Source of the DNA: an uncultured Nitrososphaerota archaeon
Lineage (GTDB): Archaea; Thermoproteota; Nitrososphaeria; Nitrososphaerales; Gagatemarchaeaceae
DNA: 64,000 nucleotides
Direction: 5' to 3'
Assembly: GCA_963718895.1 (NCBI GenBank)
Contig: CAVRAG010000008.1
Coordinates: forward strand, 1,440,001-1,504,000
Both the position numbers and the translations under genes were made by a program. This document shows positions 32,977 through 53,883 of this stretch, in pieces. Position 1 is the stretch's first letter; each line of letters starts with the position of its first letter. A model generated the notes under the pieces. It searched no databases and had not been told where the DNA came from. It was given only the letters and a program-made list of their open reading frames with translations.

Positions 32977-33474
32977 CTCGGTAGGCGGCCGAGAGTGGTG
33001 TGCTATAAGTCCGGACAGGGTCATTCTTCCCCTCAGAGGCACTCGGGCCAAGATCGAAGATATTCCTTGGTTGACGATGGTGTTTATGGCTAAACATCGC
33101 TGTGTAAGCTCCAACCTGAGACCGGAAAGATGTCGAACCTTCAGAATGCATGGGAATCGCAATCCGGATTACTGCGAATCACCCGGACGCGCCCTGTTGG
33201 CGCGATCTTGGTAGGATGAAACCAGGCGCCCGGTCCAGCTGGGAACCGAGGCGACCAGATAGGCGGTCGACCTGAGCGTCCGATAGAATGGTCGGCCCCC
33301 GCTCACCACAGCATAGAGAAACGCTTCCGAAATAGGGGAGTATTGAGATCGCAAGCGCCGGAGCAGCTAGGATGCTGACGCCCACGTCGCTGGTTCTGAC
33401 CGACCTGGTCGTGATACTCGTCTTGGGCTCGGTTTGCTTCATTCCGTTCACGCCCTTTGTCCGGGGGTTCGGCG

Positions 33475-33501
33475 GGCATAGCGTTCATTGCGCCCTGCCG
33501 G
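33475..33501 (+). repeat. Cassette repeat copy (degenerate)
   Basis: GGCATAGCGTTCATTGCGCCCTGCCGG. Confidence 0.7.
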
Positions 33502-33564
33502 ATCGAGTCTGTGCTTCACGAACGACCGTGGAGCTCATTAACCTTCGACGTCCCTAGGACAGCC

Positions 33565-34344
33565 ATGCAGCAGAAGTACACGACCGACATGTACGAAGGG
33601 ATGCTGGCGGAGACCGTGACGATTCGCGGTCATGGAGACGAGACGATCAACGCTTACTTCGCGCGCCCTCTCGGCCCCGGGCCGTTCCCCGGCGTGGTGC
33701 TGATCCACCACGCGCCAGGATGGGATGAGTTGTACAGGGAATTCACACGTAGGTTCGCCCACCGTGGGTATCTTGCAATCTCTCCGAACATCTACTTCAG
33801 GGTGGGGCACGGCTCCCCCGAAGATGTGGCCGCGATGGTCCGCTCGGCCGGAGGGCTGCCGGACGACCAGGTCGTCGGGGACGCGGTGGGCGCTGCGGCC
33901 TATCTCAGGTCCCTGCCCCAGAGCAACGGGAAGGTCGGAGGGTTCGGGACCTGCTCTGGTGGACGGCACGTGTACCTGGTTGCCTGCAGGACGAAGGCAT
34001 TTGACGCAATCGTGGACTGCTGGGGCGGCAGAGTAGTGATGACACCACAGGAACTCAATCCCAAGATGCCGGTCGCGCCGATTGTGTACACCAAGGATTT
34101 GGCCTGCCCCGTCCTCGGACTCTTCGGGAAAGACGACCAGTCACCCAGCCCTGAGCAGGTGGCGAAACAGGAGGAGGAGCTGAAGAAGTACGGGAAGTCC
34201 TATGAGTTCCACATGTACGATGGGGCGGGTCACGGCTTCTTCTACTATGACAGGGCAGCCTACAGGCAGGAGCAAGCCGTCGACGGGTGGAAGAAGGTCT
34301 TCGCGTTCTTCGAGAAGAACCTCGGGGCGGCGGGCTCGCGTTAG
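33565..34344 (+). CDS. Dienelactone hydrolase family protein
   Basis: GTCSGG nucleophile, DDQSP, AGHGFF. Confidence 0.93.
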   Translation: MQQKYTTDMYEGMLAETVTIRGHGDETINAYFARPLGPGPFPGVVLIHHAPGWDELYREFTRRFAHRGYLAISPNIYFRVGHGSPEDVAAMVRSAGGLPDDQVVGDAVGAAAYLRSLPQSNGKVGGFGTCSGGRHVYLVACRTKAFDAIVDCWGGRVVMTPQELNPKMPVAPIVYTKDLACPVLGLFGKDDQSPSPEQVAKQEEELKKYGKSYEFHMYDGAGHGFFYYDRAAYRQEQAVDGWKKVFAFFEKNLGAAGSR

Positions 34345-34358
34345 GAGGGCGAGAGACC

Positions 34359-34649
34359 GTGTGTACAGGCAAAGTCGAGACGGCACAGGCATCGGGCAGC
34401 GGCAAGGGGACAGAGGGCTGGTTCAAGCTTGAGAAACTCAGCGTAACCTACGACTGCTCGTATCATACGTCCATGGCGCAAGCCATCAATGTTGAACTGT
34501 TCAGCGAGACTGAGGGACCCTCTGCACGGGTTGCCGTAGAGTTGGCCCCGACTTCGGCGATGGAGCTGGTCCGCGCCATCCTTGCTTCGCTTGCCAAGGC
34601 CGGTCTCGACCCCGGAGAGGTCGCCCTGGGGGCCACTGCTACCCCGTGA
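34359..34649 (+). CDS. DUF6295-like protein
   Basis: GTG start; GSGKGTEGWF...GPSARVAVEL. Confidence 0.75.
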   Translation: MCTGKVETAQASGSGKGTEGWFKLEKLSVTYDCSYHTSMAQAINVELFSETEGPSARVAVELAPTSAMELVRAILASLAKAGLDPGEVALGATATP

Positions 34650-34685
34650 GAGCGCAGCACGAGGTTCTGGGATGTGTTCTGAGCC

Positions 34686-34726
34686 GATTGCACATCCGCC
34701 GGTCCACTTCATCCACATGATTAGCT
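34686..34726 (+). repeat. Cassette repeat copy (right arm kept)
   Basis: GATTGCACATCCGCCGGTCCACTTCATCCACATGATTAGCT. Confidence 0.8.
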
Positions 34727-34801
34727 AACGGAGAGCGTTCACCGACGCGGTGCGATAGGTGAATCGGCATGACCATGATTTTACGCCTGCTGCCTCCGCT
34801 G

Positions 34802-35647
34802 CTAGTCGACGTTGAAGTACCAGAATACCGCGCCGTTGTTCGATGACCCGTGGGCATTACCCCCGCGGGCGGCGTGTACCGACACGATTACCGGGACCGC
34901 CGCGGTCCAGGAGTAGCCCACGGTGCCCTGCTGACCGCTGCAGGTTATCTGCACGACCGAGGACTGGGGGTTTGGCGCCTCGAAGGCGAGTGTGAGATTG
35001 TGAGATTGGGCGTCGACGGTCGCGATCACTGTGTAGGTGTAGTTCACGGCCTGACTCCCCTTGCAGAGTCCCGTTATCGAGTACCCGATGGTCCCCTCCC
35101 CGGTCACGACGGCAGACCCTTTGCTGACGTCGGCGATGAACTTACCAGAACCTTGTATTGTGGTGGTCGATCCTGAGGAACTCGAGTTCTGGGTGTAGCC
35201 GAAAGTGACGTTGTAGACGCCGAATTGGCTCGTGCTCGACGTACTCGTGGAAGTCGGGGTGCCGGAGGATGACGACTGGGTCGAACTCGGGACTGTGAAG
35301 GTCAAGCTGGAGCTCGAGGTGCTCGTTGCCAGCGACGAAGACGACTGGGTGGCTGTCTGGGATGAAGACTGGGATGAAATCTGCGACGAGCTCTGGCCGC
35401 TCGAGGACGAACTTCCCTGGCTGCTCGTTCCGCTCCCGCCCACCGAGACGCATGGCAGAGTTGTGGTGGTGGTCGTCGAGCCCAACGGGATTGTAAGGAC
35501 GGTCGAGCATGTCGTCGTCTGGGACGAGTTCTGGGAGGCCGTCACGAAGAGGAAGTACGCTGCTGCCGCAGCTGCGATCAGGAGGATTGCGATGAGGGCA
35601 ATCGCTATTGCCGTTATCCCTCTCCTGCCCTCGACTAACAAAATCAC
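34802..35647 (-). CDS. Ser/Thr-rich surface protein with class III (pilin-like) signal peptide
   Basis: RRG/ITAIAIALIAILLIAAAAAAYF followed by low-complexity linker. Confidence 0.75.
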   Translation of the reverse strand: MILLVEGRRGITAIAIALIAILLIAAAAAAYFLFVTASQNSSQTTTCSTVLTIPLGSTTTTTTLPCVSVGGSGTSSQGSSSSSGQSSSQISSQSSSQTATQSSSSLATSTSSSSLTFTVPSSTQSSSSGTPTSTSTSSTSQFGVYNVTFGYTQNSSSSGSTTTIQGSGKFIADVSKGSAVVTGEGTIGYSITGLCKGSQAVNYTYTVIATVDAQSHNLTLAFEAPNPQSSVVQITCSGQQGTVGYSWTAAVPVIVSVHAARGGNAHGSSNNGAVFWYFNVD

Positions 35648-35998
35648 GTAGTCGGCATATCCAGCCCACTCCAGGGAAATAAGTCTTTGATTCCCGGCGT
35701 CGGTTTTTCAGGGGTGAACGGAACCCCAGGAGGCCTCCAGGAGGACGAGATGACTGTCTCCTTCGCCTCGATGAGCGGGTCGGCCTTCTCGAGATGGACC
35801 AGGATTCGTCTCTCATTGCCAGCCGTGCACCCTCTCGGTCCCCATGATTCGATCATGATCTCTGCTGTAGCATGTATCTCAGCCTTCTACGCGGTCCATG
35901 GTTTTGGGAGGAGTCGGCGGTGCAATCGAATCGGTCTGAACCCGGGAGGTCCAGAATCTTCAGCCGATTGTCGTCCTAAGATGCCGAAGAAGACAAGT

Positions 35999-36033
35999 GC
36001 CATGTTAGGCTTCATCGCGCCTCCGTCGGGGAA
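35999..36033 (+). repeat. Cassette repeat copy (supplies vapC stop codon)
   Basis: GCCATGTTAGGCTTCATCGCGCCTCCGTCGGGGAA. Confidence 0.85.
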
Positions 36034-36446
36034 TGATTCGGTACGGGAATGTACACGGCTTCCCGTCCTAAGGCGTTCTTGATGGTCGAGTCTGTCGTGA
36101 TGAGGATCGGTGCGGTGGCTTCTCTCGTGGCGAGGGCGAAGCAATCTGCGAGCGAAAGTTCTCTCTTCTTGACCTTCCAAAGGGCCGCCTGTCTTGTGAT
36201 CTGCACCTCGGGCGCGACGACCTTAATCCTGGAGCTGCGAACCTGAAGATACCAGACCTCGGCCGTTTCGACCCCCTTCTTCTCGGCAGTCTTGTAGTAG
36301 AACTCGGCGAGATTCACCTCAGAGACGAAACCGCGTGCCTTTCCTGAAAGGACCCTATCAAAGTAGGGCTTCACAGATGTCGCTCCAGCATAGTAAAGGG
36401 AAAGCGCCCCCGCGTCCAGCGCGTAGCTACGCGCGCTCAGACTCAA
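36012..36446 (-). CDS. vapC: VapC PIN-domain toxin
   Basis: YALDAG, NLAEFYY, SLADCF, LITTD; TTG start overlaps antitoxin. Confidence 0.9.
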   Translation of the reverse strand: MSLSARSYALDAGALSLYYAGATSVKPYFDRVLSGKARGFVSEVNLAEFYYKTAEKKGVETAEVWYLQVRSSRIKVVAPEVQITRQAALWKVKKRELSLADCFALATREATAPILITTDSTIKNALGREAVYIPVPNHSPTEAR

Positions 36447-36660
36447 CTTCCTTTCTCCGATCCCTCGATATTTCGAGCGCAACCTCCAGCATCTCGTCTC
36501 CTCCTGCCCCAAAACTCTCTTCCATCGAAAGAGAGGGCTCGAGAAGAATTCGTCCTCCTTCATCTCTGATTATCACGGCGCGGCCGATCTTGAACTTCCT
36601 TCTGAGATACGCGGGGATGACCACCTGTCCCTTGGAAGACACGGGAACGACCTTTTCCAT
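36427..36660 (-). CDS. AbrB/MazE-type antitoxin
   Basis: VSSKGQVVIPAYLR. Confidence 0.92.
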   Translation of the reverse strand: MEKVVPVSSKGQVVIPAYLRRKFKIGRAVIIRDEGGRILLEPSLSMEESFGAGGDEMLEVALEISRDRRKEVESERA

Positions 36661-36691
36661 GAAATCCGAGAAAGTAGGGCTTGTTTAAGTG

Positions 36692-36738
36692 TTTTACTTC
36701 CGTAGAGTTTTACTTCTAGAGCGATTTTACTTCCAGAG
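36692..36738. promoter_or_regulatory. Three direct repeats upstream of the AbrB-VapC operon (putative operator)
   Basis: TTTTACTTC(N1-3)AGAG at 36692, 36708 and 36725. Confidence 0.55.
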
Positions 36739-36749
36739 TCCGGTTCGAG

Positions 36750-36765
36750 AGGGTTCATTGCGCCT
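36750..36765 (+). repeat. Cassette repeat copy (core; supplies stop of Zn-ribbon gene)
   Basis: AGGGTTCATTGCGCCT. Confidence 0.75.
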
Positions 36766-37273
36766 GATGATCAGCTAAATTCTGAACTAACTCCCTGGAG
36801 AGCAAACATGTCTGCTCGAGCGTCAAACTCGATATGCTCTTGTCCAAGTCGGGAGACCCCTTCACAGCTGTCTGAAGTTCGAATCGGTCTCCCCCTGTTA
36901 TCACGCTCCAAGAGCTTTCTGGGTTCGAAATTCGTCCATACATGTTTGCGAGGGCGATGAACCTGTTTCTCACCGCACGCGAGTAGGTTTCGTTCTCCAT
37001 CAGCGCCAGGAGTCCGATGCCTGTCTGAGTTGATTCGCAGAGATACTTGAGAGCGGCAATCACGGCAAGGGGCTTCTCTCCCCTGAGGCCGAAACGTGCC
37101 TGCGACGACAGCATCTCGATGAAACGTCTGACATTATCTTCTGCAGCAGCAGGATCCATCCTGAGATCATTCGGACCTGCGCCCTGAACCCGTATCGTCG
37201 TGTTGCATCTGGGGCAGATGAGTTGGGCAGAATAAGCTTTCATTCGCGAGCCGCAGGACGGGCAGAAGTTCAA
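36755..37273 (-). CDS. Zn-ribbon hypothetical protein
   Basis: FCPSCG...ICPRC N-terminus. Confidence 0.7.
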   Translation of the reverse strand: MNFCPSCGSRMKAYSAQLICPRCNTTIRVQGAGPNDLRMDPAAAEDNVRRFIEMLSSQARFGLRGEKPLAVIAALKYLCESTQTGIGLLALMENETYSRAVRNRFIALANMYGRISNPESSWSVITGGDRFELQTAVKGSPDLDKSISSLTLEQTCLLSRELVQNLADHQAQ

Positions 37274-37381
37274 GGGCTTGAATCACTGTCTCCTGCCGTC
37301 CATAAATGATTTTTCTACATGCGCGCGAGACTCAGGGCCTCTAGCCATTTCTTGCTCTTGCACCTCCATAGAAGGTGTTGT

Positions 37382-37438
37382 GCCCTGCCAGGGTGTTCGT
37401 TGCGCCTCAGCCGCGACTCTTCATCAACGCGGGTTGGA
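37382..37438 (+). repeat. Cassette repeat copy (degenerate, full length)
   Basis: GGGTGTTCGTTGCGCCTCAGCCGCGACTCTTCATCAACGCGGGTTGG. Confidence 0.7.
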
Positions 37439-37443
37439 GATGG

Positions 37444-37863
37444 TCAGGCTCCGAGCCACACCGTTTCGGGAAGGGCCTTGAAATGCTCGTCACCCGTGAC
37501 GACTCTCGCCTTGTTCCTCTTTGCCGATGCAAGGACGATTCCATCAAAAAGACTGGGTTTTCTCAGGCCTGAAGAGGAAGCCCTCCTGTCGAGCTTGACG
37601 GTGGCCTTGGCCGCCTCTAGGGCTAGGTCGGCATCGATGCAAACGATCTCTGAAGTCTCGAGTATTGTGGCCAGCCGCTTCCGGACGGTCGACTCGGCTG
37701 CACCTTCGCGAACATACTTCCTCGCCACCTCGGCAAGGACGGTGCCAGGCGTCAGCACATTTTCGGCATCTTCGATGACTCTCTTGGCCCTCTGCCCTGT
37801 CTCACTGCCCAGGAAGACCTCTATCCAGGCATAGGCGTCAACTACGATCTTCGTCACGATCAT
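37444..37863 (-). CDS. vapC: VapC PIN-domain toxin
   Basis: VVDAYAWIE, VLAEV, SLFDG, VTGDEHF. Confidence 0.93.
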   Translation of the reverse strand: MIVTKIVVDAYAWIEVFLGSETGQRAKRVIEDAENVLTPGTVLAEVARKYVREGAAESTVRKRLATILETSEIVCIDADLALEAAKATVKLDRRASSSGLRKPSLFDGIVLASAKRNKARVVTGDEHFKALPETVWLGA

Positions 37864-38044
37864 CCTCTGTGAAGGGAGTCACCTTTCCGCTGTCCGCGCC
37901 GAACGCCTCCTCGAGGAGCGCCTTGCGGTGCCGCACGACCAGCATTCGTATGGTCTCCTCCAGGGTTCTGGCGTGTATACCCTTCTGCAGCGCTGCCAGC
38001 TCGCGAGCTGTGTCCTTAGAGACTTTTACGGTGGTCGCATCCAT
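37838..38044 (-). CDS. VapB-type (RHH-like) antitoxin
   Basis: TTVKVSKDT; overlaps vapC start. Confidence 0.85.
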   Translation of the reverse strand: MDATTVKVSKDTARELAALQKGIHARTLEETIRMLVVRHRKALLEEAFGADSGKVTPFTEDDRDEDRS

Positions 38045-38177
38045 GCTGAGTATACAGTATACTGGAATATTAAAGCATCCCTGGCTCAAGCGCGTAGGGA
38101 TTCACATAGCGTGTTCGGCGGACTTCCTGAGCAAATCCGTATTACATTTATATACATCTTGGCGTCATACAAATCCA

Positions 38178-38435
38178 ATGCCGGTGGTGACGGTTCGCGT
38201 ACCCGAGGCGCACAAGCGGAAGATGGACGAGCTAAGAGAAGTCAACTGGAGCGAGGTGATCCGGAGAGCGATAGAGGCGAAGATCGAGGAGGAAGAGACG
38301 TGGCACCGTATCGACGCCGCCAGGCTGAGGAAGGCAGGGACCTCGACCGACGAATTGAGGCGGAAGGTCGAAGGGTGGGATAGCCTCTCAGAGATAAGGA
38401 AGTGGCGCAGGTCTCATGGTGACAGTGGTAGCTGA
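38178..38435 (+). CDS. VapB-type (RHH/CopG) antitoxin
   Basis: MPVVTVRVPE...VNWSEVIRRAIE. Confidence 0.88.
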   Translation: MPVVTVRVPEAHKRKMDELREVNWSEVIRRAIEAKIEEEETWHRIDAARLRKAGTSTDELRRKVEGWDSLSEIRKWRRSHGDSGS

Positions 38436-38877
38436 CGCCTCGGTCATAGTGAAGTGGTTCGTCGAAGAAGACCACTCGGAGACCTCATTGCGGATGAGAG
38501 ACGACTATGTCGCCCAGAGGACCACGATCATCGTTCCCGCCGTCGCTCAGTTCGAGGTGCTGAACGCCCTTCGCTACTCTGGAGGTTTTGGTACGGATGA
38601 CCTGCTCGAAGTGGCCCGGACGCTCGACGGCTATCAGTTCATGGAGGTCATGCTGCACGGCGACTATTCGGGGAAGGCCGTCAAGATTGCCATGGACCTG
38701 GGCATAACGGTGTACGATGCATCCTACCTTGCGCTGGGAGAGGTACGCGGAATCGATGTGTTCACCGCCGACGAGGAACTCCTCAAAAAGGCCCGGAAGA
38801 AGCTAGCTTTCGTGCGGCATGTGAAAGATTACACCTTTCCTAAAACAGACGGCGAAGAGAACAGCACATCCCCATAG
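38416..38877 (+). CDS. vapC: VapC PIN-domain toxin
   Basis: VADASVIVKWF, EVLNAL, TVYDASY, FTADE. Confidence 0.93.
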   Translation: MVTVVADASVIVKWFVEEDHSETSLRMRDDYVAQRTTIIVPAVAQFEVLNALRYSGGFGTDDLLEVARTLDGYQFMEVMLHGDYSGKAVKIAMDLGITVYDASYLALGEVRGIDVFTADEELLKKARKKLAFVRHVKDYTFPKTDGEENSTSP

Positions 38878-38900
38878 AGTCGTCAGGATGATTTAATCCC

Positions 38901-38945
38901 TGGGGTTTATTGCGCCTCCGCCGGGAATCTCATCCAGCGGTTAGT
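38901..38945 (+). repeat. Cassette repeat copy
   Basis: TGGGGTTTATTGCGCCTCCGCCGGGAATCTCATCCAGCGGTTAGT. Confidence 0.85.
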
Positions 38946-39080
38946 GAGAGCGATACAAGTCGGTCTGACCGTATTCAGGTTGCGAACGGCGGACTACAGG
39001 AATCTCCGGCCCGAGCGGGGAAGCTCGGGTTCAGCTCGTCGGCGCTTCAACTCGCTCACTCGCCAATTGGGCTACCAGCG

Positions 39081-39563
39081 TCATTCTTGCCGTCTTTTGC
39101 GGGCGAACGCTCGAAGCATCGGGATGTCTTCCTGGAAGGCCTTCGCCAGCGTCTCCCTCAGCTTATCCGCGACCGCCTTCGGGGCACGCACGTAGACGTC
39201 GATTCCGGTCTTGTTCCCTTTGGGGGTGTAGAGGAAGACCATCTTCAAGCCTGCATAGGCTCCCTCGAACTCCTCGCTGATGCGGGCCAAGGGAGGAATG
39301 GTCGTGATCCGTGCTTTCATCTTCATCCATCGCCCTCCCCTCACCACTTCGCAGGTCGCCTCGTCGGTTATTTCGTTCACTTCCTTCCACTTCATGTTTC
39401 GCAGACTCCCGCGGTGGGCCCGAGGGTGGAACTCGTTGTCGTTCATGATGAAATCCCAGACGACGTCGATCGGGGCATCGTATACGCTTCCTTTGTCCTC
39501 GAAGTATACGAAGTCCGCGGAGTCCCCAGCCTTTGTGGAACGGGTAGGCATGGTTGGCATCAT
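39081..39563 (-). CDS. SRPBCC-like hypothetical protein
   Basis: YDAPIDVVWDF motif. Confidence 0.65.
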   Translation of the reverse strand: MMPTMPTRSTKAGDSADFVYFEDKGSVYDAPIDVVWDFIMNDNEFHPRAHRGSLRNMKWKEVNEITDEATCEVVRGGRWMKMKARITTIPPLARISEEFEGAYAGLKMVFLYTPKGNKTGIDVYVRAPKAVADKLRETLAKAFQEDIPMLRAFARKRRQE

Positions 39564-39612
39564 AATCGTGTACGACAAATAAAGGGTGTGACAGATTGGT
39601 CGGCAATCAGTT

Positions 39613-39668
39613 GCCGTGCATAGGGTTCGTTGTGTCTCCGCCGGGCCATTTCATCCACATGTTGGGCT
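39613..39668 (+). repeat. Cassette repeat copy (full length)
   Basis: GCCGTGCATAGGGTTCGTTGTGTCTCCGCCGGGCCATTTCATCCACATGTTGGGCT. Confidence 0.95.
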
Positions 39669-39694
39669 CAGTCAGTGGACTTGAAATGTCGTCT

Positions 39695-39958
39695 TCACGT
39701 CCGGTAGACGCGGTCATGGTGTTCATAGTCCTCGAGGACTATTGTCTTCCTCGCCTCGTCGATCGAAAAGAGTAAGACATAGCTGCCGATGTGGACCCTC
39801 CTCAGTCCAGCGAGCGGGAAGCGGAGCGGCTTGTACGCGTGTGGATCTTCGGCTATCTCCTGAACCTTCTTCGCGACCGCTTCCATCTGCCTAGAGTCTT
39901 TCTTGGTCAGCTTCCTGAACGCCTTATCGAGATGCTCCCTGATCTCGATGTCGTACAT
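39695..39958 (-). CDS. relE: RelE/ParE (YafQ-like) toxin
   Basis: YKPLRFPLAGLRRVHIGSYVLLF...HHDRVY. Confidence 0.9.
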   Translation of the reverse strand: MYDIEIREHLDKAFRKLTKKDSRQMEAVAKKVQEIAEDPHAYKPLRFPLAGLRRVHIGSYVLLFSIDEARKTIVLEDYEHHDRVYRT

Positions 39959-40201
39959 TCACTTCAGTCCGTATCTCTTCCGCAGGTCGGGGGCGCGTCC
40001 GAGCCTGATTATCGGCTCTTTCTGGACTTCCAGGAGCTTGCGGATGTATTCCGGTCTGAACTCGGATTCCAGGACGATCTCCCTGTACTCTTTGGCGAGC
40101 TTGTTGATGGCCTGTGACTTGTCTCTTAAGCCGTATTGGGCCTTTAGGATGTTGATGACCCTATTTGCCTCATCGTCGATGTCGACGATCGCCTTGACCA
40201 T
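39959..40201 (-). CDS. DUF2683-like antitoxin
   Basis: MVKAIVDIDDEANRVINILKAQYGLRDKSQAI; abuts toxin gene. Confidence 0.85.
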   Translation of the reverse strand: MVKAIVDIDDEANRVINILKAQYGLRDKSQAINKLAKEYREIVLESEFRPEYIRKLLEVQKEPIIRLGRAPDLRKRYGLK

Positions 40202-40272
40202 ATTAATATGGCATTAATACGCCATTATTTAGAGCTACCGTCAGGGAGAGACGCGCCATCCACCGGTCGACC

Positions 40273-40303
40273 GTCATGCTAAGGTTCACTGCGCCTCCGC
40301 TGG
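40273..40303 (+). repeat. Cassette repeat copy
   Basis: GTCATGCTAAGGTTCACTGCGCCTCCGCTGG. Confidence 0.85.
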
Positions 40304-40446
40304 AGGCTCCTCGATCTCTCCGGATAGAGTAAGGCAAATCGCAGAAGATTCTCGGGTTCGGAGGCCAGCCTGACAAATCTTCCTGATGTATTGCTGAAAT
40401 AATCTTAATCTCCTCCTATCAATATCGCGCTTTCATACTATGTCTC

Positions 40447-40716
40447 ATGGAATCTCGAAGCAGATTCGACGTTGTGACCGGAATCCTGCTCGCGACGAAG
40501 GATGGAGCCTCGAAGGCAAGGATAACCAGCGAGAGCTCCCTCGCGCCATCCTTGGTCGAGCAGTGCCTGTTCTTCCTGCGGCTTTCGGACCTCATCAAGA
40601 AGGAGGAGGGAAGCGAGCTGTTCAGGCCGACCGAGAAAGGCAGCAATCTGATCAGTGACTATGAGCGCATCGACCGGACGATGGAAGGACGGTTAGTCCA
40701 GCCGTTGACGAGCTGA
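40447..40716 (+). CDS. Archaeal winged-helix protein
   Basis: RSRFDVVTGIL...FRPTEKG. Confidence 0.8.
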   Translation: MESRSRFDVVTGILLATKDGASKARITSESSLAPSLVEQCLFFLRLSDLIKKEEGSELFRPTEKGSNLISDYERIDRTMEGRLVQPLTS

Positions 40717-40767
40717 GAAGAGACCGATTTCGCTGCGCAGGAGGACTCGTTGCGTCCGGCACAATCA

Positions 40768-40818
40768 GCCTGCAGAGTCCTTGCGCCTCCGCCCAGGTAT
40801 TTCATCCATATGTTGGCT
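40768..40818 (+). repeat. Cassette repeat copy (supplies stop of membrane gene)
   Basis: GCCTGCAGAGTCCTTGCGCCTCCGCCCAGGTATTTCATCCATATGTTGGCT. Confidence 0.85.
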
Positions 40819-41203
40819 GCTTGCGTCTCAGCTTGCCGACAATGATCACAGCCAGTCCGGCTATTGCTACCAAGAAACCTCCATAGAATGGAAAGTAGTA
40901 GCCAGTCAGATTGCAAACCTCCATGCATAGGGTTTGGGTCAGAACCAGGAACGATCCGAAGGATACCAACAGTCCAATCGACACCGTCGTCCATCCAGCA
41001 TCCACGAAGAGGTTGGAGCGCGCGTTTGGAGTCCTCCACCTCTGAAGAACGCCAACACAGGTAAAGAGCCCGCCTCCCAGAACTCCCAGCACCCCGAAAT
41101 TGGCCAGAGCCAGGTCTTCATTCAGCGGACTGGCGTAGTAGTACAGGACCAACGCGACCGCTCCGAGCGTGACGAGTACCAAGCCCAGCCGGGAGAAGTT
41201 CAT
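40802..41203 (-). CDS. 4-TM membrane protein
   Basis: Four hydrophobic segments. Confidence 0.7.
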   Translation of the reverse strand: MNFSRLGLVLVTLGAVALVLYYYASPLNEDLALANFGVLGVLGGGLFTCVGVLQRWRTPNARSNLFVDAGWTTVSIGLLVSFGSFLVLTQTLCMEVCNLTGYYFPFYGGFLVAIAGLAVIIVGKLRRKQPTYG

Positions 41204-41312
41204 CGTTCCAACCTCACAGAATCGAGAATCTTCTCATCCTAAATGCGTTTGTCCGAATGCAAATGACCGTAGCCTCCAGCCATTGGCTTCTAACCAATGG
41301 AAGAGATGTCTT

Positions 41313-41338
41313 GCCATGTATAGGGTTCATTGCGCCTC
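41313..41338 (+). repeat. Cassette repeat copy (left arm + core)
   Basis: GCCATGTATAGGGTTCATTGCGCCTC. Confidence 0.92.
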
Positions 41339-41364
41339 GTTGAGCACTCTTGTCATCAACTGCA

Positions 41365-41544
41365 TCATTCCTTCTTCTGCTTGCTTCCGATCTCAACCAT
41401 CTGGAACTGGCACTGGTACTTCTTTCCGTTGAGATCCAATTTTTGGGTAGCCCAGTAGCCGACTGATCCAGTGCTGAACTTCTTCTCGGGGAGACCGATG
41501 TCGGCGATCTTTTGCGATCCTTCATAGAGTTCGATGCGTGGCAT
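41365..41544 (-). CDS. Small hypothetical protein (59 aa)
   Basis: KKFSTGSVGYW...KKYQCQFQMVEIGSK; fills a ~270-bp unit. Confidence 0.65.
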   Translation of the reverse strand: MPRIELYEGSQKIADIGLPEKKFSTGSVGYWATQKLDLNGKKYQCQFQMVEIGSKQKKE

Positions 41545-41610
41545 GAGCGCCAACGCACCGTCAGGCGTAGTTAAGACTGCCCTCGGGGCCAACTGCATTC
41601 CCGATGAGCT

Positions 41611-41651
41611 GTTATTGCGCCTCCGCCGGTCCATTTCATCCATGCGTTGGA
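41611..41651 (+). repeat. Cassette repeat copy (core + right arm)
   Basis: GTTATTGCGCCTCCGCCGGTCCATTTCATCCATGCGTTGGA. Confidence 0.92.
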
Positions 41652-41760
41652 CAATTCTACACCGGCGATCGTTCTGCATACGGATGCGTCTGGCCGACTT
41701 ATGGGAATGCCGCGTTCAGAGCGAAGAGAGCGAGGAAGGGCGCGGACGTCGCCGCGCCCT

Positions 41761-43488
41761 TCAAGAGGTTCCCGCGGTCTTGCCGGCGACCCAGCCAAAG
41801 AACGTGGCGGGACCAACCGTTGCGCCGCCTCCTGGGTAGGCTGCTCCGAACGGAGAGGCCGAATCGTTCCCAGCCGCATAGAGCCCGGGGATTGGGTTGC
41901 CCAGCTTGTCGAGGACTTGGGCGCTGGAGTTGATTCTCGGACCTCCTGAGGTGCCTATTGTGCCTGGATCTATCTCCAGTCCATAATACGGTGGAGTTTG
42001 GATTGGCCCCAGGCATATGTTCTTCAGGTCGGTTCTCTTGGGATCGCCCGTAGTATTGAGGTCGAAGCTGAACACTCCGCGATTGAAGTCGGGGTCAACT
42101 CCGTTCGCCGCGTACTGGTTGAACTGCGTGACGGTTGCTTGAAGCCCACTTGGGTTGATGTTAAGAGCGGCAGCCAGGGCTTGGAGCGTGTTCGCTGAGG
42201 AAACGTAGCTTGGCTGTTTCGAACCGGGTAGGTATGTCACGAAACCGTAGTTGTTGACGCAAGTCTGATCCAAGATCGCGTAGGCAGGCATGTTCGGGTA
42301 GCCGTATGTTGCGTTGGACCATTCGTAGAAGGTCCTGTTGATTACTGGGTACGCTGACGATTCGTTCGTAAACCTCTCCCCGGCACTGTTGACGATTATC
42401 ACCCCGGGTTTTCCGCGGATGAGACCCCAGTCTGCAACGCCACCATTTGGAGTATTGTAGTGAGGGCAGCCCCATGCGTTGTTCATGTTGCGAATATCCG
42501 CTCCCGCAGCCATCGCCATTAGGATGCCGTCCCCGGTGTTCCCAAGGGCGGCGCTTGTGAAATGCACCGGTCCGCGCTGGTAGTTTGACATCATCTCAGC
42601 GTTTTGGTCGTATCCTCCCGCCGCAAGGATGACTCCCTTCTTGGCCGCGATGTTGATGGTTGACCCGCTGGAGGTGGCCTTCAAACCCAATATGCGTCCA
42701 GTCGCATCCATGTAGAGTGCCGTAGCGGGTGTTGAAGTCATGATCGTTCCGCCCTTGCTCTTCACCGCTGCGTTGAGAGTCTGAATGATCCCGGCCCCGG
42801 CGGCGCTGATCCCAGGGCCACCACCGGTTGGAGAAACCTGAAGCCCGGTTCCTTGCGCCCCGGGTACATTGTAGTAACAGACGAACGTGGTGGCCAAAAC
42901 GAACGTCATCCCGTATACCTGAATGAGGTGATCGACCCATCCAGGCGACCCCTGCAGGTAGGTTGTCAGGAGGTTCTGATCCAGCTCGCTTTCCCCGATC
43001 GCACTCAAGTATTGCTGAAGGTTCGACGACGAGATAGTTGCAGGCGAGGCCGCCACCGCCAGACTCGAGTTCGGAACCCACATCCCCCCGCCTGAGACGC
43101 CCGTCGTCCCACCTACCGCCGGTGCCTTCTCCAGCACTATGACGCTCGCTCCAGACTCCAGTGCGCCGACCGCGGCCGAGAGCCCTGCTCCGCCCGCACC
43201 CACCACGACCACGTCGGCCGTGTGATCCCAGGTCGAAGGGATGCTGAGTACGAGATTGGAGGGTATCGTCTGCGTTGCAGCCTGAGTCACGGTGCTCGTG
43301 ACAGCCGGTAGTGTGCTTGTCGAAGTCGAGACCGACGTCGTGGTTACAGTATTAGTCTTGGGGAACCCATATGCGCCAATCGCGGCCCCGGCTACAGCGC
43401 CGATGACCAACCCTCCGCCTACACCAGCTACGAACTTCCGCCTTGACATGGCATTTTTCTTGTCGTTATCAGAAGAACCTGTTGACAT
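41761..43488 (-). CDS. Tat-exported FAD-dependent oxidoreductase (fumarate reductase/KstD-like flavoprotein)
   Basis: SRRKFV signal; VVVGAGGAG; GERFTNE; GLYAAGN. Confidence 0.9.
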   Translation of the reverse strand: MSTGSSDNDKKNAMSRRKFVAGVGGGLVIGAVAGAAIGAYGFPKTNTVTTTSVSTSTSTLPAVTSTVTQAATQTIPSNLVLSIPSTWDHTADVVVVGAGGAGLSAAVGALESGASVIVLEKAPAVGGTTGVSGGGMWVPNSSLAVAASPATISSSNLQQYLSAIGESELDQNLLTTYLQGSPGWVDHLIQVYGMTFVLATTFVCYYNVPGAQGTGLQVSPTGGGPGISAAGAGIIQTLNAAVKSKGGTIMTSTPATALYMDATGRILGLKATSSGSTINIAAKKGVILAAGGYDQNAEMMSNYQRGPVHFTSAALGNTGDGILMAMAAGADIRNMNNAWGCPHYNTPNGGVADWGLIRGKPGVIIVNSAGERFTNESSAYPVINRTFYEWSNATYGYPNMPAYAILDQTCVNNYGFVTYLPGSKQPSYVSSANTLQALAAALNINPSGLQATVTQFNQYAANGVDPDFNRGVFSFDLNTTGDPKRTDLKNICLGPIQTPPYYGLEIDPGTIGTSGGPRINSSAQVLDKLGNPIPGLYAAGNDSASPFGAAYPGGGATVGPATFFGWVAGKTAGTS

Positions 43489-43721
43489 ACGATTCGATTG
43501 GTAAGGGTCAATCCAGGTATATACAGCGCCTAGACGATTCTCAGAATTGAGAAGTGTCGCAGAATGGCCGAGGAAACGACGAGGAATCCCCAGGCCCGTC
43601 GGTTTGTTCTTCACTCCACAATGACCTACGATCTTCTGAATCCCCTTTTGAATCTAGATTCGCTTGACGATTCTTCCCCAATGGGTATGGTCCGACTCTC
43701 GCGGTGGAGGCAGATCTGGGC

Positions 43722-44699
43722 TCAGAGAGGGGTGACCGTCGCGGGGGCAGGGCTCGGCCGAGCCCTGCGAGCCCTAACGAGTACCATGGCGACCGCCCCT
43801 GTGAAGGCGGCGACGCCTGCTGCGGCGACCCAGGTCACGGGTGACAGGTAGACTGGGGTCGGCTCGATGCTCAGCGAGTTCCCTGAAGCCACCGCGTAGC
43901 CGCGCGTCACGATCTCGGCGGATGGGTCTGACGTGACCTTGAGCGAGTATGTCTGCCCATCGTTGGTGTATGTCGTGGAGAGCGACGATGACCCGCTTAT
44001 CGTCTTCGAGAAGGTAGTTGTGTTCGTCAGCGAGTTGTACGACTTGGTCCAGGTCGTGAGCGGTGCGCTTAGGCTGGAGAAGTTCAGCGTCGGCATGTTC
44101 CATAGCCCATCGCCGCCGAACATACCCGTCACTGCCCCGAGTCCGTTGTCCCTGCCCACCATCGACCAGGCTATCGTCGAGCCGAGAAGGTTGATGTCGA
44201 CCGAGTGTCCCTGGAAGTCAAGATCGAGCGCGCCGTCGACGTGAAAGGCCCTCCATCCTAGGTCGGCTGTCACCGTCCCGTTGACGACCTTGAAGACGCC
44301 TTTGACCGTCGCGGTGATGTTGGTGTCTTTGTTTATGACGAGCGCAGTTGCGTTCGCCTTTGCGCTGTAGTTCGTGGAGACGGTCATGTTCTGTATGGAG
44401 ACCGACCTGCCCTCGTCGTCGTGCAGGTGGTTCACGAGATCAGAGATGCCCTGACTGCCGGCGTTGAACGTCCCGGAGGCGGTATCGGACTGCGAGAATC
44501 CCTTGAGATACTTGGAAAGAGTTGAATTAGCGGGATACGCGAGAACCACGTGAGTCGAGCTCACGCTGGTCATGGTTGCAGCCCCCGTCGAGGGGTCAAG
44601 GTCGACCTTCAGGGTCGAGGCTGCTGCCGCGGGCGCCAAAGAAAGGAGCGCGAGCGCGAGCACGCAGAGCGGTGCAGCACCTCTTGCGATCTTTTGCAT
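43722..44699 (-). CDS. Secreted protein with C-terminal TM anchor
   Basis: Signal peptide, beta-rich body, TM plus basic tail. Confidence 0.8.
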   Translation of the reverse strand: MQKIARGAAPLCVLALALLSLAPAAAASTLKVDLDPSTGAATMTSVSSTHVVLAYPANSTLSKYLKGFSQSDTASGTFNAGSQGISDLVNHLHDDEGRSVSIQNMTVSTNYSAKANATALVINKDTNITATVKGVFKVVNGTVTADLGWRAFHVDGALDLDFQGHSVDINLLGSTIAWSMVGRDNGLGAVTGMFGGDGLWNMPTLNFSSLSAPLTTWTKSYNSLTNTTTFSKTISGSSSLSTTYTNDGQTYSLKVTSDPSAEIVTRGYAVASGNSLSIEPTPVYLSPVTWVAAAGVAAFTGAVAMVLVRARRARPSPAPATVTPL

Positions 44700-44857
44700 G
44701 AAACAGATGAGGATTCGCTGGCACAATAAACTCACGCTTTTGAACGGACTTTCAATGTCATTTTTCCAGGTTCCAGTGGCTGGAACTGATAGTGTTTAGT
44801 CTAAACAGAACCACATCGTGAGACCAACTGCTCCACTTGCAGACCTTCAAAGGCATA

Positions 44858-44887
44858 CCATGCGTAGGGTTCATCGCGCCTCCGCCG
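44858..44887 (+). repeat. Cassette repeat copy
   Basis: CCATGCGTAGGGTTCATCGCGCCTCCGCCG. Confidence 0.92.
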
Positions 44888-44986
44888 ACCGTCGGAAGCT
44901 GGGGGACGCCCAAAGTGGGTCGCGAAGGCCCGGCGAGGGTCGGCCACGTGGAAAGCTTAACTCACATTTCCCTCATCATTCAGCAC

Positions 44987-45767
44987 ATGGAACTGCAGGG
45001 AAAGGTCGCGGTAGTGACAGGAGGATCGCGCGGTATCGGAAAAGCAATCGCCAAGACCTTCGCCCGTGAGGGAGCTCACGTGGTGGTGAACTATGTCCAG
45101 GCCTCGGCAGAGGCGAGCAGGGTCGTGGAAGAGATTAGGATGGCGGGAGGAAGTGCAATATCGGTCATGGCCGAGGTTTCGCAGAGGGTCCAAGCGCAGA
45201 AGCTTGTGGACGAGGCGGTCAAGACGTTCGGAAGGCTCGACGTCCTCGTTAACAATGCGGGAATCAGAAGCGAAGGGACGATACTCGACACGACCGAAGA
45301 GGACTGGGACAGAACGATGGATGTCAATCTCAAGGGTCCCTTCAACTGCATGCAGGCAGCAGGAAAGGTCATGGTCCAGCAGAGGTACGGCAAGATAGTG
45401 AACATTTCTTCGATATCTGGTCTCGGCGGTGCTCCGGGGGGAGAGTTGGCCTACAGCTGCTCGAAGGCGGGTCTAATCAGCATGACTCTGGTCGCTTCGC
45501 TTGATCTGGGTCAGTATGGAATCAACGTCAACTGCGTTGCACCTGGCTGGACGGTCACAGACATGGTTCTTCGGGCCGCGGGTAGCGAGAAGAGGCTGGA
45601 TGAGTTGAAGCAAATCAAGGCCCGCATGGCATCGATGGGGAGGGTCGGAGGATCCTCAGGACATAGCCAACGTAGCCCTGTTTCTGGCCTCAGACGCGTC
45701 GAGCTTCATCTCCGGACAGGTCATCGTGGCGGACGGCGGACGGAAGGACTTCATGAGTCACGCATGA
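44987..45767 (+). pseudogene. FabG-like SDR with +1 frameshift near 45650 (real or sequencing error)
   Basis: TGGSRGIG and YSCSK; C-terminal [30 protein letters not shown] lies in another frame. Confidence 0.85.
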
Positions 45768-45820
45768 TGGCGCGCGCCTTCCATTCCAGTCTACGCTATA
45801 TCACTATCAGGGATAATTGA

Positions 45821-45876
45821 GACATGTGTAGGTTCATTGCGCCTCCGCGGGTCCATTTCATCCACACGTTGGGCTA
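45821..45876 (+). repeat. Cassette repeat copy (full length)
   Basis: GACATGTGTAGGTTCATTGCGCCTCCGCGGGTCCATTTCATCCACACGTTGGGCTA. Confidence 0.95.
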
Positions 45877-46032
45877 GTGCTCAAGGTTCTTCCTGAGGCT
45901 GATAACGAGTTCGAGTGCTTCGAGCTCCTCGAACAGCGTTTCTGGACTCCTAAGGGGCGCCCTCACAACTCGTCTCTTGAGTCTTCTTTCAAGGGATACG
46001 AGCAGCTTTAGGAGCTCTTCGTCTTCTTCCAA
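45874..46032 (-). CDS. Small helical protein (52 aa); TAG stop overlaps repeat end
   Basis: TTG-EEDEELLKLLVSLERRLKRRVVRAPLRSPETLFEELEALELVISLRKNLEH-TAG. Confidence 0.5.
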   Translation of the reverse strand: MEEDEELLKLLVSLERRLKRRVVRAPLRSPETLFEELEALELVISLRKNLEH

Positions 46033-46193: not shown

Positions 46194-46207
46194 AGTGGAA
46201 GTTGTTA

Positions 46208-46263
46208 GCCATGCACAGGGTTCATTGTGCCTCCGCCGGGGCATTTCATCCACTAGTTGGGCT
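46208..46263 (+). repeat. Cassette repeat copy (full length)
   Basis: GCCATGCACAGGGTTCATTGTGCCTCCGCCGGGGCATTTCATCCACTAGTTGGGCT. Confidence 0.95.
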
Positions 46264-53881: not shown

Positions 53882-53883
53882 AC

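What the first reader, a model, noticed from the sequence alone, without database searches (positions are those of the whole stretch)
39613..39668. Repeat is an imperfect hairpin with only half of the attC signature
Seen: full copies end in GTTGGGC, which matches the GTTRRRY core. Read on the cargo (minus) strand this is GCCCAAC (RYYYAAC) just downstream of stop codons, where R'' lies in attC. The arms can pair: CATGT/ACATG, GGGT/ATCC and an inner TGC(G)CCT/GGGGCA, with bulged bases. The far end is CATGGC rather than GTTRRRY. Inference: it may be a folded single-strand substrate like attC but for a divergent recombinase, or a double-stranded site with arms GGGTTCATTGC / GCATTTCATCC around a 12-bp spacer.
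Basis: partly seen in the sequence, partly recalled or inferred. Interest (0 to 1): 0.8.

Follow-up and report, generated by a model that had tools for sequence, protein, structure and literature searches.

The report
Archaeal cassette array anchored at 23S
The repeat is not an integron hairpin but a copy of the tail of the 23S ribosomal RNA gene and its processing stem, repeated about 75 times between small gene cassettes directly behind the ribosomal RNA operon of a soil archaeon, which looks like an integron-like gene-capture system I could not find described in the papers I searched.

Summary
The repeat is real: 74 same-strand copies lie over 126 kb, 39 of them in the window. The hairpin/attC reading fails. 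Folds are no better than shuffles, there is no covariation, and only one attC-like end is present.

The sequence is the 3' strand of the archaeal 23S pre-rRNA processing helix. Its right half is the reverse complement of the last roughly 20 nt of 23S; GTTGGGC is that conserved rRNA end. Its core, GGGTTCATTGCGCCTCCGCCGGGG, pairs with the 5' flank of 23S in a bulge-helix-bulge-like stem.

The last copy is the native 23S flank, so the array starts at the rRNA operon. The same holds in 5 of 5 relatives examined. The organism is a Nitrososphaerota archaeon (Gagatemarchaeaceae-like).

Cassettes carry 1-3 genes, many of them toxin-antitoxin pairs. They are duplicated, shuffled and shared between species, with breakpoints inside the repeat.

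No recombinase adjoins the main arrays. In five other genomes, small arrays of the same repeat end next to a zinc-ribbon tyrosine recombinase gene.

Best reading (about 0.5): the repeat is a double-stranded recombination site of an IntI-independent, integron-like system whose primary site is the 23S 3' flank. The enzyme and the chemistry are inferred, not shown.

The parts
39613..39622 (+). Left flank of this repeat copy (GCCGTGCATA; consensus GCCATGTATA). It is the complement of the outer helix of the 23S processing stem.
   Evidence: It is present in 28 or more of 169 copies.
39623..39646 (+). Core of the repeat (consensus GGGTTCATTGCGCCTCCGCCGGGG; this copy has 3 mismatches in the first 20 nt). 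It is the complement of the bulge-helix-bulge-like part of the 3' strand of the 23S processing stem. It is the only part shared by nearly all copies.
39647..39669 (+). Right half of the repeat (CATTTCATCCACATGTTGGGCTC).
   Evidence: It is present in 23 of 74 copies of this array.
1758..64000 (+). The part of the cassette array that lies in the window: 39 core copies, all on the + strand. The array runs on to window-equivalent position 127973, where the last copy is the native 3' flank of the 23S rRNA gene.
39695..40201 (-). Cassette to the right of the repeat: a ParE-family toxin (39695-39958) and a DUF2683 small protein (39959-40201). This is a likely toxin-antitoxin pair.
39081..39578 (-). 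Cassette to the left of the repeat: a 165-aa ORF with no Pfam family.
57833..57889 (+). Example of a full copy, with left flank, perfect 20-nt core and right half.
41313..41338 (+). Example of a copy with the left flank and the core only. Similarity ends after GCGCCTC.
48021..48110 (+). Example of the roughly 90-nt extra module to the left of some copies (..tagttatgtccgaa..cctccagcc..gatgccgtaaagaa..). It is related to the 3' trailer of the rRNA operon. By my reading of the printed flanks, about 17 of the 78 copies carry it.

Best explanation
The repeat is the recombination site of an integron-like gene-cassette array. The primary site of that array is the 3' flank of the 23S rRNA gene.

Each copy is a duplicate of part of the 3' strand of the pre-23S processing helix: the 23S 3' end, a bulge-helix-bulge-like core, and the outer helix.

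Cassettes of 1-3 genes are inserted, excised, duplicated and exchanged between species by recombination within a 16-24 bp core, GGGTTCATTGCGCCTC(CGCCGGGG). The site acts as double-stranded DNA, not as a hairpin.

The most likely enzyme is a tyrosine recombinase with a C-terminal zinc ribbon, acting in trans on the rRNA-anchored arrays.

Shown: the identity of the repeat with the rRNA flank, the anchoring at 23S, the cassette structure, the shuffling, and the breakpoints inside the repeat.

Inferred: site-specific (rather than homologous) recombination, the enzyme, and the direction of growth.
For: 1. The repeat is the rRNA flank.
- The last copy abuts the only LSU rRNA gene in the genome.
- The 5' flank plus the 23S 5' end cofolds with the 23S 3' end plus the repeat at -91 kcal/mol.

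2. The anchoring is conserved.
- In 5 of 5 relatives examined (G007, G009, G010, G018, G021), the array starts at the 23S 3' end.
- 19 of 22 genomes of the genus and 1 of 1 of a sister genus hold the repeat. 0 of 1 genome of a third genus of the same family and 0 of 16 other families of the order do.

3. The content is cassette-like.
- Among 150 predicted proteins, 16 carry a PIN domain and 10 a MazE/AbrB antitoxin domain; the rest are varied enzymes.
- Of 155 predicted genes, 102 are on the minus strand and 53 on the plus strand.

4. Cassettes move as units bounded by repeats.
- Duplicates within the array are 90-97% identical and end in repeats.
- One repeat is a hybrid: its left side matches one copy and its right side another.
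- Cassettes are shared with G007 at 90-96% amino-acid identity in different positions.

5. Similarity breakpoints cluster.
- The left boundary lies at core position -1 to +2 in 101 of 169 copies. The right boundary lies at positions 15-25 in 99 of 169.
- 51 of 74 copies keep the core without the right half. Only 6 of 29 right halves lack the core.
- The central 9-mer TTGCGCCTC occurs 42 times on the + strand and 0 times on the - strand of the array.

6. Right halves carry 23S-end variants of other species.
- One G010 copy has 1 mismatch to the G021 type and 8 to its own type.
- 11 of 19 G000 copies are nearer the G010/G007 type.
- 6 of 11 G007 copies are nearer the G000 type.

7. A candidate recombinase adjoins small arrays of the same repeat.
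- A tyrosine recombinase gene lies 0.6-2.6 kb beyond the last repeat of small arrays in G012, G017, G020, G001 and locus L042. It has the same orientation as 23S has to the main array. The zinc ribbon was seen by Pfam in the G012 and G001 genes; the gene in L042 is cut at the contig end.
- G012, G017 and G020 share the repeat-DnaJ-recombinase block at 91-96% nucleotide identity. Between the conserved flanks they hold 4, 1 and 2 cassettes.

8. Core mismatches fall toward the rRNA (Spearman rho -0.34, p 0.0035). This fits older cassettes lying distally.
Against: - No recombinase gene lies in or next to any rRNA-anchored array examined.
- The zinc-ribbon recombinase family was found in only 11 of 22 genomes of the genus. 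It was not found in G018 (87% complete) or G010 (77% complete), both of which have arrays.
- In G000 its only member is 100 kb from the array, with no repeat within 2 kb.
- Homologues at 30-36% identity occur in genomes that lack such arrays.
- The core shows no clear dyad symmetry of the kind usual for tyrosine-recombinase core sites (read from the sequence).
- The right halves vary in length: most reach up to about 80 nt from the core start, and one copy reaches 119 nt. Homologous recombination or unequal duplication would give this as readily.
- No circular cassette or empty site was observed.
- The core counts depend on a threshold of 4 mismatches or fewer, so copies cut short before position 15 are invisible.
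Confidence: 0.5

Rival explanations
1. There is no dedicated recombinase. The copies are passive duplicates of the rRNA 3' flank. Cassettes are gained, lost, duplicated and exchanged by homologous recombination or unequal crossing-over between these copies. Cassette circles released in one cell re-enter at any copy in another cell, helped by the genus-wide conservation of the rRNA flank.
For: - There is no recombinase at the main arrays.
- Arrays exist in genomes where no zinc-ribbon recombinase was found.
- Copies share variable lengths of homology with 23S, up to 119 nt from the core start.
- Duplicated cassettes and the hybrid repeat are what unequal crossing-over gives.
Against: - 51 of 74 copies keep only the 16-24 nt core, and the flanks show no similarity. 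Random decay of passive copies should not spare the core: only 6 of 29 right halves lack it.
- The left boundary is sharp to within 2 nt in 101 of 169 copies.
- Such short cores are poor substrates for homologous recombination (established knowledge, not tested here).
- Small arrays end at a recombinase gene in five genomes.
Confidence: 0.2
2. The copies are kept for an RNA function. In minus-strand transcripts (read-through from the rRNA promoter, or cassette mRNAs), each copy is the 3' half of a bulge-helix-bulge site. It pairs with the single 5' strand upstream of 23S, or acts as a processing or termination signal between cassettes. This could coexist with a DNA recombination role.
For: - The most conserved part is exactly the helix-bulge-helix part of the 3' strand.
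- The two most variable core positions (A to G at core position 7 in 9 of 91 copies, T to C at position 9 in 10 of 91) fall in the 3-nt bulge AAU of the RNA.
- The array lies downstream of the rRNA operon on the strand that carries 102 of 155 genes.
- Some copies are followed by a T-rich trailer-like module.
Against: - The genome holds only one copy of the partner 5' strand.
- 53 of 155 genes are on the other strand.
- Both variable positions create CpG, so a mutational bias could explain them (read from the sequence).
- An RNA function does not explain how cassettes with copies arise, or why small arrays end at a recombinase gene.
- No RNA data were on hand.
Confidence: 0.1
3. The copies are target-site duplications left by serial insertion by a transposase- or casposase-like enzyme, as CRISPR repeats are duplicated by Cas1.
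For: - Same-strand direct repeats of one target segment separate inserted DNA, and the array begins at a fixed 'leader' (the rRNA gene).
- Casposons with target-site duplications are known in Thaumarchaeota (PMC6563490, passages read).
Against: - Cas1 was found in 1 of 5 genomes, resolvase in 1 of 5, Y1 transposase in 0 of 5 and Y2 in 0 of 5 (the Y2 control was silent).
- No terminal inverted repeats were seen next to the copies.
- Copies differ in extent, and right halves carry the rRNA variants of other species. These travel with the cassette and are not made at the target.
Confidence: 0.05
4. It is an ordinary integron, or a cluster of attC sites lacking an integrase (CALIN), with divergent attC hairpins recombined by IntI.
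For: - The array has same-orientation repeats between small cassettes rich in toxin-antitoxin pairs.
- One end matches GTTRRRY.
- Integrons have been reported in archaeal MAGs (PMC9668308, passages read).
Against: - There is no second core site, no hairpin and no covariation.
- The tyrosine recombinases near such repeats score 24-42 bits on the integron-integrase model, against a cut-off of 265.
- The repeat is the rRNA flank.
Confidence: 0.02

Closest known systems
Sedentary chromosomal integrons and CALINs (attC arrays; for example the Vibrio superintegron; archaeal integrons in PMC9668308)
   Same: - A long array of small, mostly promoter-poor cassettes is separated by one lineage-specific repeat in a single orientation.
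- Many cassettes are toxin-antitoxin pairs.
- Cassettes are duplicated and shared between species.
- Most arrays lack an adjacent integrase, as CALINs do.
- Small arrays end at a tyrosine recombinase gene.
   Different: - The repeat is not a hairpin and has no R''/R' pair.
- It is a copy of a host RNA gene flank.
- The primary site is the 23S 3' flank, not an attI next to intI.
- The candidate recombinase is not IntI.
- The conserved part of the site sits at the upstream end of each cassette in the direction of most genes.
Tandem integration of mobile elements at the 3' ends of tRNA, tmRNA or protein genes by tyrosine integrases (archaeal integrated elements; PMC6563490, PMC8371274)
   Same: - Direct repeats reproduce the 3' part of the target gene, so the gene stays intact.
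- Arrays form by repeated use of one site.
- The candidate enzyme is a tyrosine recombinase.
   Different: - The target is a 23S rRNA gene and its processing stem. The word 'rRNA' does not occur in the main text of either paper (supplements not seen).
- The array holds about 75 units of 0.3-5 kb without integrases of their own, rather than a few self-sufficient elements.
Archaeal pre-rRNA processing stems with bulge-helix-bulge motifs, cut by the splicing endonuclease and ligated into circular pre-rRNA (PMC7038931, PMC7714728, 10.64898/2026.03.23.713588; search listing and starts of abstracts only)
   Same: The rRNA-proximal copy is the 3' strand of such a stem. It has a long helix with the 5' flank, a 4-bp GCGC helix, and a 3-nt bulge AAU on the 3' strand.
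   Different: About 73 further copies of the 3' strand alone lie between protein-coding cassettes, while only one 5' strand exists in the genome.

Membership tests
Integron attC site | Inverted core sites R'' (RYYYAAC) and R' (GTTRRRY) at the two ends | tested here: not met
   Only GTTGGGC is present. The other end is GCCATG.., with no RYYYAAC on the same strand.
Integron attC site | Imperfect hairpin of one strand with extrahelical bases, conserved in structure rather than in sequence | tested here: not met
   Fold z-scores are -0.23 to +1.87. The proposed pairs are 75.2% paired against 75.9% in shuffles, with no excess covariation. The RNAalifold consensus has 3 pairs at -1.5 kcal/mol. Conservation is in sequence: core columns are 89-100% identical.
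Integron attC site | Hit to the attC covariance model of IntegronFinder | not testable with these tools
   That model is not in Rfam. Rfam at gathering thresholds gave 0 hits on the window.
Integron (IntI platform) | An IntI-type integrase gene next to the array | tested here: not met
   No PF00589 hit lies in or next to the main arrays. The recombinases next to the small arrays score 24-42 bits on TIGR02249, against a cut-off of 265.
Archaeal 23S pre-rRNA processing stem (3' strand) | Lies directly 3' of the 23S gene and is complementary to the 5' flank | tested here: met
   This holds for the proximal copy: LSU 3' end at L004:4000, cofold -91 kcal/mol. The same flanks occur in five relatives. 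The other copies are duplicates of it, not stems themselves; there is only one 5' strand.
Archaeal 23S pre-rRNA processing stem (3' strand) | Canonical bulge-helix-bulge (3-nt bulge, 4-bp helix, 3-nt bulge) cut by the splicing endonuclease | tested here: inconclusive
   A GCGC/GCGC helix with an AAU bulge on the 3' strand is visible. The other side is a 5-nt by 1-nt loop in the minimum-energy fold. Cleavage is not testable here.
Attachment-site array of a tyrosine-recombinase element | Direct repeats identical to the 3' part of the target gene, in one orientation, bounding inserted DNA | tested here: met
Attachment-site array of a tyrosine-recombinase element | A cognate recombinase, and excision or integration products | tested here: inconclusive
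   A recombinase adjoins five small arrays but no rRNA-anchored array. No circles or empty sites were seen in the data on hand.

The most novel reading that the evidence does not exclude
A whole archaeal genus carries a non-homologous analogue of the integron. It is a 50-130 kb cassette store that uses a copy of the 23S pre-rRNA processing stem (its bulge-helix-bulge 3' strand) as both chromosomal anchor and cassette recombination site. It is served in trans by a zinc-ribbon tyrosine recombinase unrelated to IntI. Cassette transcription or processing may be coupled to the rRNA operon and the splicing endonuclease.
Probability: 0.4. Interest if true: 0.9.

Novelty: new variant of a known kind. 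Interest (0 to 1): 0.8.

Why it matters
Integrons are the textbook system for capturing and stockpiling genes, and they are defined by IntI and folded attC sites.

This finding would be an independent invention of the same strategy in Archaea, built on a different site and probably a different enzyme. The site is an essential and therefore stable rRNA flank.

It would explain about 4% of this genome: 126 kb of 3.13 Mb. It would also explain a hypervariable region present across a genus of abundant acid-soil and peat archaea.

The array gives a natural marker of gene flow between species, because each cassette carries the donor's rRNA-end variant.

It also offers a defined 16-24 bp site and a candidate recombinase for experimental test.

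Tried and rejected
- **Rfam**, gathering thresholds: 0 hits on the window.
- **Start-codon idea.** On the minus strand the core reads GGAGG..ATG. Frames from that ATG are mostly 3-40 codons and ATG is often ACG, so it is not a conserved gene start.
- **Second copies of the 5' strand** of the stem: none; there is 1 copy in the genome.
- **Filled versus empty cassette sites** among stored loci: the 4 candidates were all intron polymorphisms inside 23S, not cassettes.
- **Other enzymes**, each searched in 5 genomes: resolvase 1 of 5, Cas1 1 of 5, Y1 0 of 5, Y2 0 of 5 (the Y2 control rang nowhere, so that result is uninformative).
- **The cassette next to 23S in G007:** an AAA ATPase, no recombinase.
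- **Large genes interrupting the G000 array:** no recombinase.
- **Viral contigs:** 0 exact core matches.
- **Public sequencing runs:** no RNA holder was listed. Four DNA runs were laid as short Logan contigs. Contigs with 0 or 1 differences bridge single repeats with both flanks at 41323, 49623 and 57159, which supports the assembly there. All 6 joints have sides of 21-32 nt and lie in repeats, so they say nothing about excision.
- **The tyrosine recombinase near the repeat copy at C8:1189536:** unrelated to the zinc-ribbon family (E 0.12) and next to a tRNA gene. I do not count it as support.
- **The only tyrosine recombinase of G018:** sits at a glutamine synthetase gene with no repeat nearby.
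- **Supplementary tables** of PMC9668308 and PMC6563490 could not be seen. They might list Nitrososphaeria integrons or rRNA targets.

Full report
**Observation**

The stretch 39613-39669 (+) reads GCCGTGCATA GGGTTCGTTGTGTCTCCGCCGGGC CATTTCATCCACATGTTGGGCTC. It belongs to a large repeat family.
- The 11-mer GGGTTCATTGC with up to 2 mismatches occurs 64 times in the window, against 16.7 expected. None of 100 shuffles reaches 64.
- The window lies at C8:1440001-1504000 of a 3.13-Mb, 11-contig genome.
- The 20-nt core GGGTTCATTGCGCCTCCGCC with up to 4 mismatches occurs 78 times on the + strand of C8 and once on the - strand. A second cluster lies on contig C4, with 10 copies on + and 8 on -.
- 74 of the C8 copies form one array from window position 1758 to window-equivalent position 127973. 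Median spacing is 1097 bp, with a range of 285-18773 bp. 39 copies are in the window.

**The hairpin**

I folded five copies on both strands as DNA. The z-scores against 200 shuffles each run from -0.23 to +1.87, so none folds better than chance.

- 75.2% of cells are paired, against 75.9% after shuffling the 3' partners. 492 of 500 shuffles are at least as high.
- The covariation score is 0.099 against 0.105 in shuffles.
- The outer helix is only 43% paired.
- RNAalifold finds 3 pairs at -1.5 kcal/mol, none covarying.
- Conservation is in sequence, not structure. Core columns are 89-100% identical and the left ten columns 31-76%. The related loci were fetched by an exact core match, so their core identity is inflated.

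**What the sequence is**

Rfam places an archaeal 23S gene at L004:4000-8001 (-) and a 16S gene at 8203-9702 (-). L004 is C8:1564001-1584000. This is the only LSU gene in the genome.

The last repeat copy has its core at L004:3973, so it runs into the 3' end of 23S.
- Read on the rRNA strand, the right half of the repeat is the last roughly 20 nt of 23S (...GCCCAACGUGUGGAUGAA).
- The core plus left flank is the sequence that follows (AUGCCCCGGCGGAGGCGCAAUGAACCCUACACAUGGC).
- The 5' flank of 23S reads GCCAUGCAUAGGGUUCGCGCAAGCAUCCGCCGGGGAU.
- The two sides cofold at -91 kcal/mol into one long helix.

This is the archaeal pre-23S processing stem. Its centre has a GCGC/GCGC helix with a 3-nt bulge AAU on the 3' strand and a 5-by-1 loop on the other side. 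That makes it bulge-helix-bulge-like. It is an inference from the fold; cleavage was not tested. Such motifs in 16S/23S processing stems are described in papers of which I saw only the search listing and the starts of abstracts (PMC7038931, PMC7714728, 10.64898/2026.03.23.713588).

The GTTGGGC that looked like half an attC is the complement of a conserved 23S 3' motif. Three other Nitrososphaerales genomes also end their 23S with ..CCCAACGC.. or ..ACCAACGC...

**Organism and distribution**

Exact core matches in the species-representative genome collection fall almost only in MAGs titled Nitrososphaerota, Nitrososphaerales or Thaumarchaeota, including Candidatus Gagatemarchaeum stordalenia. 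Two short contigs are binned as Acidobacteria and Acidimicrobiales.

Among 40 relatives, the 161-nt query matched in:
- 19 of 22 genomes of the genus
- 1 of 1 genome of a sister genus
- 0 of 1 genome of a third genus
- 0 of 16 other families of the order

In all five relatives with long contigs that I examined (G007, G009, G010, G018, G021), the array starts at the 3' end of the 23S gene. In G007 the printed LSU coordinates stop short of the true end because of an insert in the gene. The sequence shows that the proximal copy is continuous with 23S.

Three complete genomes of other families do not repeat their own 23S flank within 20 kb downstream. The same procedure finds the copies in G000.

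**Cassettes**

A codon-usage gene call gives 155 genes between the copies, 102 on the minus strand (the rRNA strand) and 53 on the plus strand. There are usually 1-3 genes per interval.

Of 150 proteins scanned, 16 have a PIN domain and 10 a MazE/AbrB antitoxin domain. The rest are varied enzymes, transporters and NHL-repeat proteins.

The cassette to the right of the finding encodes a ParE toxin and a DUF2683 protein. The one to the left encodes a 165-aa protein of no family.

Cassettes are duplicated within the array at 90-97% identity, with the homology ending in the repeats. At 89107-89141 one repeat is a hybrid: its left side matches the copy at 67008 and its right side the copy at 51756.

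G007 shares cassettes with G000 at 90-96% amino-acid identity, in partly different order and among many unshared ones.

Core mismatches fall toward the rRNA (rho -0.34, p 0.0035). The distal quarter has sparse, degenerate copies: mean 2.9 mismatches, none perfect, median spacing 2.75 kb.

**Anatomy of the copies**

I compared 169 array copies in six genomes with each genome's own rRNA-proximal copy.
- Similarity ends on the left within 2 nt of the core start in 101 copies, and about 10 nt further out in 28.
- Similarity ends on the right at core positions 15-25 in 99 copies.
- The remaining copies run on into the 23S end. Most reach 26-81 nt from the core start, and one copy reaches 119 nt.

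In the G000 array, 23 of 74 cores are followed by the 23S-end half and 51 are not. Of 29 23S-end halves, 23 have the core. Six do not by the ±2-nt test, and one of those carries the core displaced by 4 nt.

Copies with only the right half share sequence from core position 8-9 onward. The piece common to all classes is therefore TTGCGCCTC, which occurs 42 times on the + strand and 0 times on the - strand of the array.

The right halves carry species-specific rRNA-end variants, and not always the host's own.
- One G010 copy has 1 mismatch to the G021 type and 8 to its own.
- 11 of 19 G000 copies are nearer the G010/G007 type.
- 6 of 11 G007 copies are nearer the G000 type.

This fits cassettes travelling between species with their repeat. 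Retained ancestral variants cannot be excluded.

**Recombinase**

No PF00589 hit lies in or beside any rRNA-anchored array. Other candidate enzymes are rare: resolvase 1 of 5 genomes, Cas1 1 of 5, Y1 0 of 5, Y2 0 of 5 with a silent control.

G000 and G007 share a 412-444-aa tyrosine recombinase (84% identical) with SAM-like, catalytic and C-terminal zinc-ribbon domains. This family is patchy, found in 11 of 22 genomes of the genus, and sometimes multicopy.

In G012, G017 and G020, a member about 50% identical to the G007 protein lies 0.6-0.7 kb to the right of the last copy of a small + strand array. It is on the minus strand, in the same position and orientation that 23S has at the main array.
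- The block repeat-DnaJ gene-recombinase is 91-96% identical between the three species.
- The sequence to the left of that repeat differs between them.
- Between this block and a conserved left flank lie 4, 1 and 2 cassettes.

The same layout occurs in G001, at 2.6 kb, and in locus L042 of a named Gagatemarchaeum MAG, at 0.6 kb.

Of eight loci of this recombinase family that I fetched on purpose, four adjoin repeats. Of 114 8-kb windows around exact cores, two hold such a gene.

These proteins are not XerA equivalogs (48-96 bits; cut-off 220) and not integron integrases (24-42 bits; cut-off 265).

**Reading**

The shown facts are:
- an rRNA-flank-derived repeat
- an array anchored at 23S across a genus
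- cassette units bounded by the repeat
- breakpoints inside a 16-24-bp core
- rRNA-end variants of other species within arrays
- a recombinase at the end of small arrays

From these I infer an integron-like system that recombines a double-stranded core site, with the 23S 3' flank as primary site (confidence about 0.5).

Homologous recombination alone (0.2) explains the shuffling. It does not explain the survival of 51 core-only copies or the sharp left boundary.

An RNA role for the copies as half bulge-helix-bulge sites (0.1) is suggested by where the conservation lies. It could coexist with the DNA role, but there is only one partner strand and no RNA data.

Target-site duplication (0.05) and a true integron (0.02) are poorly supported.

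**Literature**

- The archaeal integron paper (PMC9668308, passages read) reports 75 MAGs of nine phyla with canonical attCs. It does not mention rRNA, Thaumarchaeota or Nitrososphaeria in its main text.
- The Gagatemarchaeaceae genomics paper (PMC10640624) contains none of the words integron, cassette, repeat, integrase or mobile in its main text.
- The survey of thaumarchaeal integrated elements (PMC6563490, passages read) lists tRNA genes, intergenic regions and 3' ends of protein genes as targets, and never rRNA.
- The review of archaeal tyrosine recombinases (PMC8371274, passages read) has neither 'rRNA' nor 'zinc'.
- Searches for bulge-helix-bulge with gene cassettes, and for Thaumarchaeota with integron or cassette array, found nothing relevant.
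- Supplements were closed.

I therefore found no description of this system, within those searches.

Noticed in passing
L004:4000-8001 (C8:1568000-1572001); L078:4874-5789; L023:4421-5129; L048:1723-2401; L132:19180-20000: The 23S genes of this genus hold large, species-variable inserts. LSU gene spans run from 3.7 to 6.2 kb against a 2987-nt model. Inserts of 678-917 nt are present in some species and absent from others at the same 23S positions. These are probably rRNA introns, some carrying an ORF.
   Followed up: partly
window 48021-48110; also left of the copies at 55267, 70124, 72388, 74505, 88327, 95634, 98758, 121861 and 127973 (window-equivalent positions): By my reading of the printed flanks, about 17 of 78 copies carry a further conserved module of about 90 nt to their left (..attaatagttttgtccgaa..cctctagcc..gatgccgtaaagaaagg..). 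It is related to the 3' trailer of the rRNA operon. On the rRNA strand it has a small hairpin with a U-rich loop, followed by an AT-rich box. It may act as a terminator plus promoter between cassettes, or as a small RNA. No Rfam family matched.
   Followed up: partly
G000 contig C4:263567-302702, plus isolated copies at C4:80399, 354433 and 385306: A second cluster of the same repeat lies on another contig, with copies in both orientations (10 on +, 8 on -). One of its cassettes is shared with the G007 rRNA array (C4:300176-300926). What anchors this cluster was not examined.
   Followed up: no
L005:4536-8692 (C8:1189536-1193692): A repeat copy with the trailer-like module lies 1.4 kb from a 461-aa tyrosine recombinase gene. 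That gene abuts an intron-containing tRNA gene (141 nt) and a second recombinase-like ORF, so this is probably an integrated element. A group II intron domain lies at L005:18494-18592.
   Followed up: partly
window 5364-8396 and window-equivalent 84412-87446: A 3-kb, three-gene segment is duplicated within the array at 82% identity.
   Followed up: no
window 48245-49597 (+) and 59762-61162 (-): Two cassettes encode NHL-repeat beta-propeller proteins. Their internal 126-174-nt DNA repeats account for several of the direct-repeat families in the window.
   Followed up: partly
core positions 7 and 9 of the repeat (for example window 39629): The two commonest variants of the core are CAT to CGT and TTG to TCG. 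Both fall in the 3-nt bulge of the RNA stem, and both create CpG. Selection on RNA structure and mutational bias were not separated.
   Followed up: no
L151:3931-5401 (G018:C3): In G018 the glutamine synthetase gene reads as two overlapping ORFs next to a 431-aa tyrosine recombinase gene. This is either an element integrated at glnA or a frameshift in the assembly.
   Followed up: no
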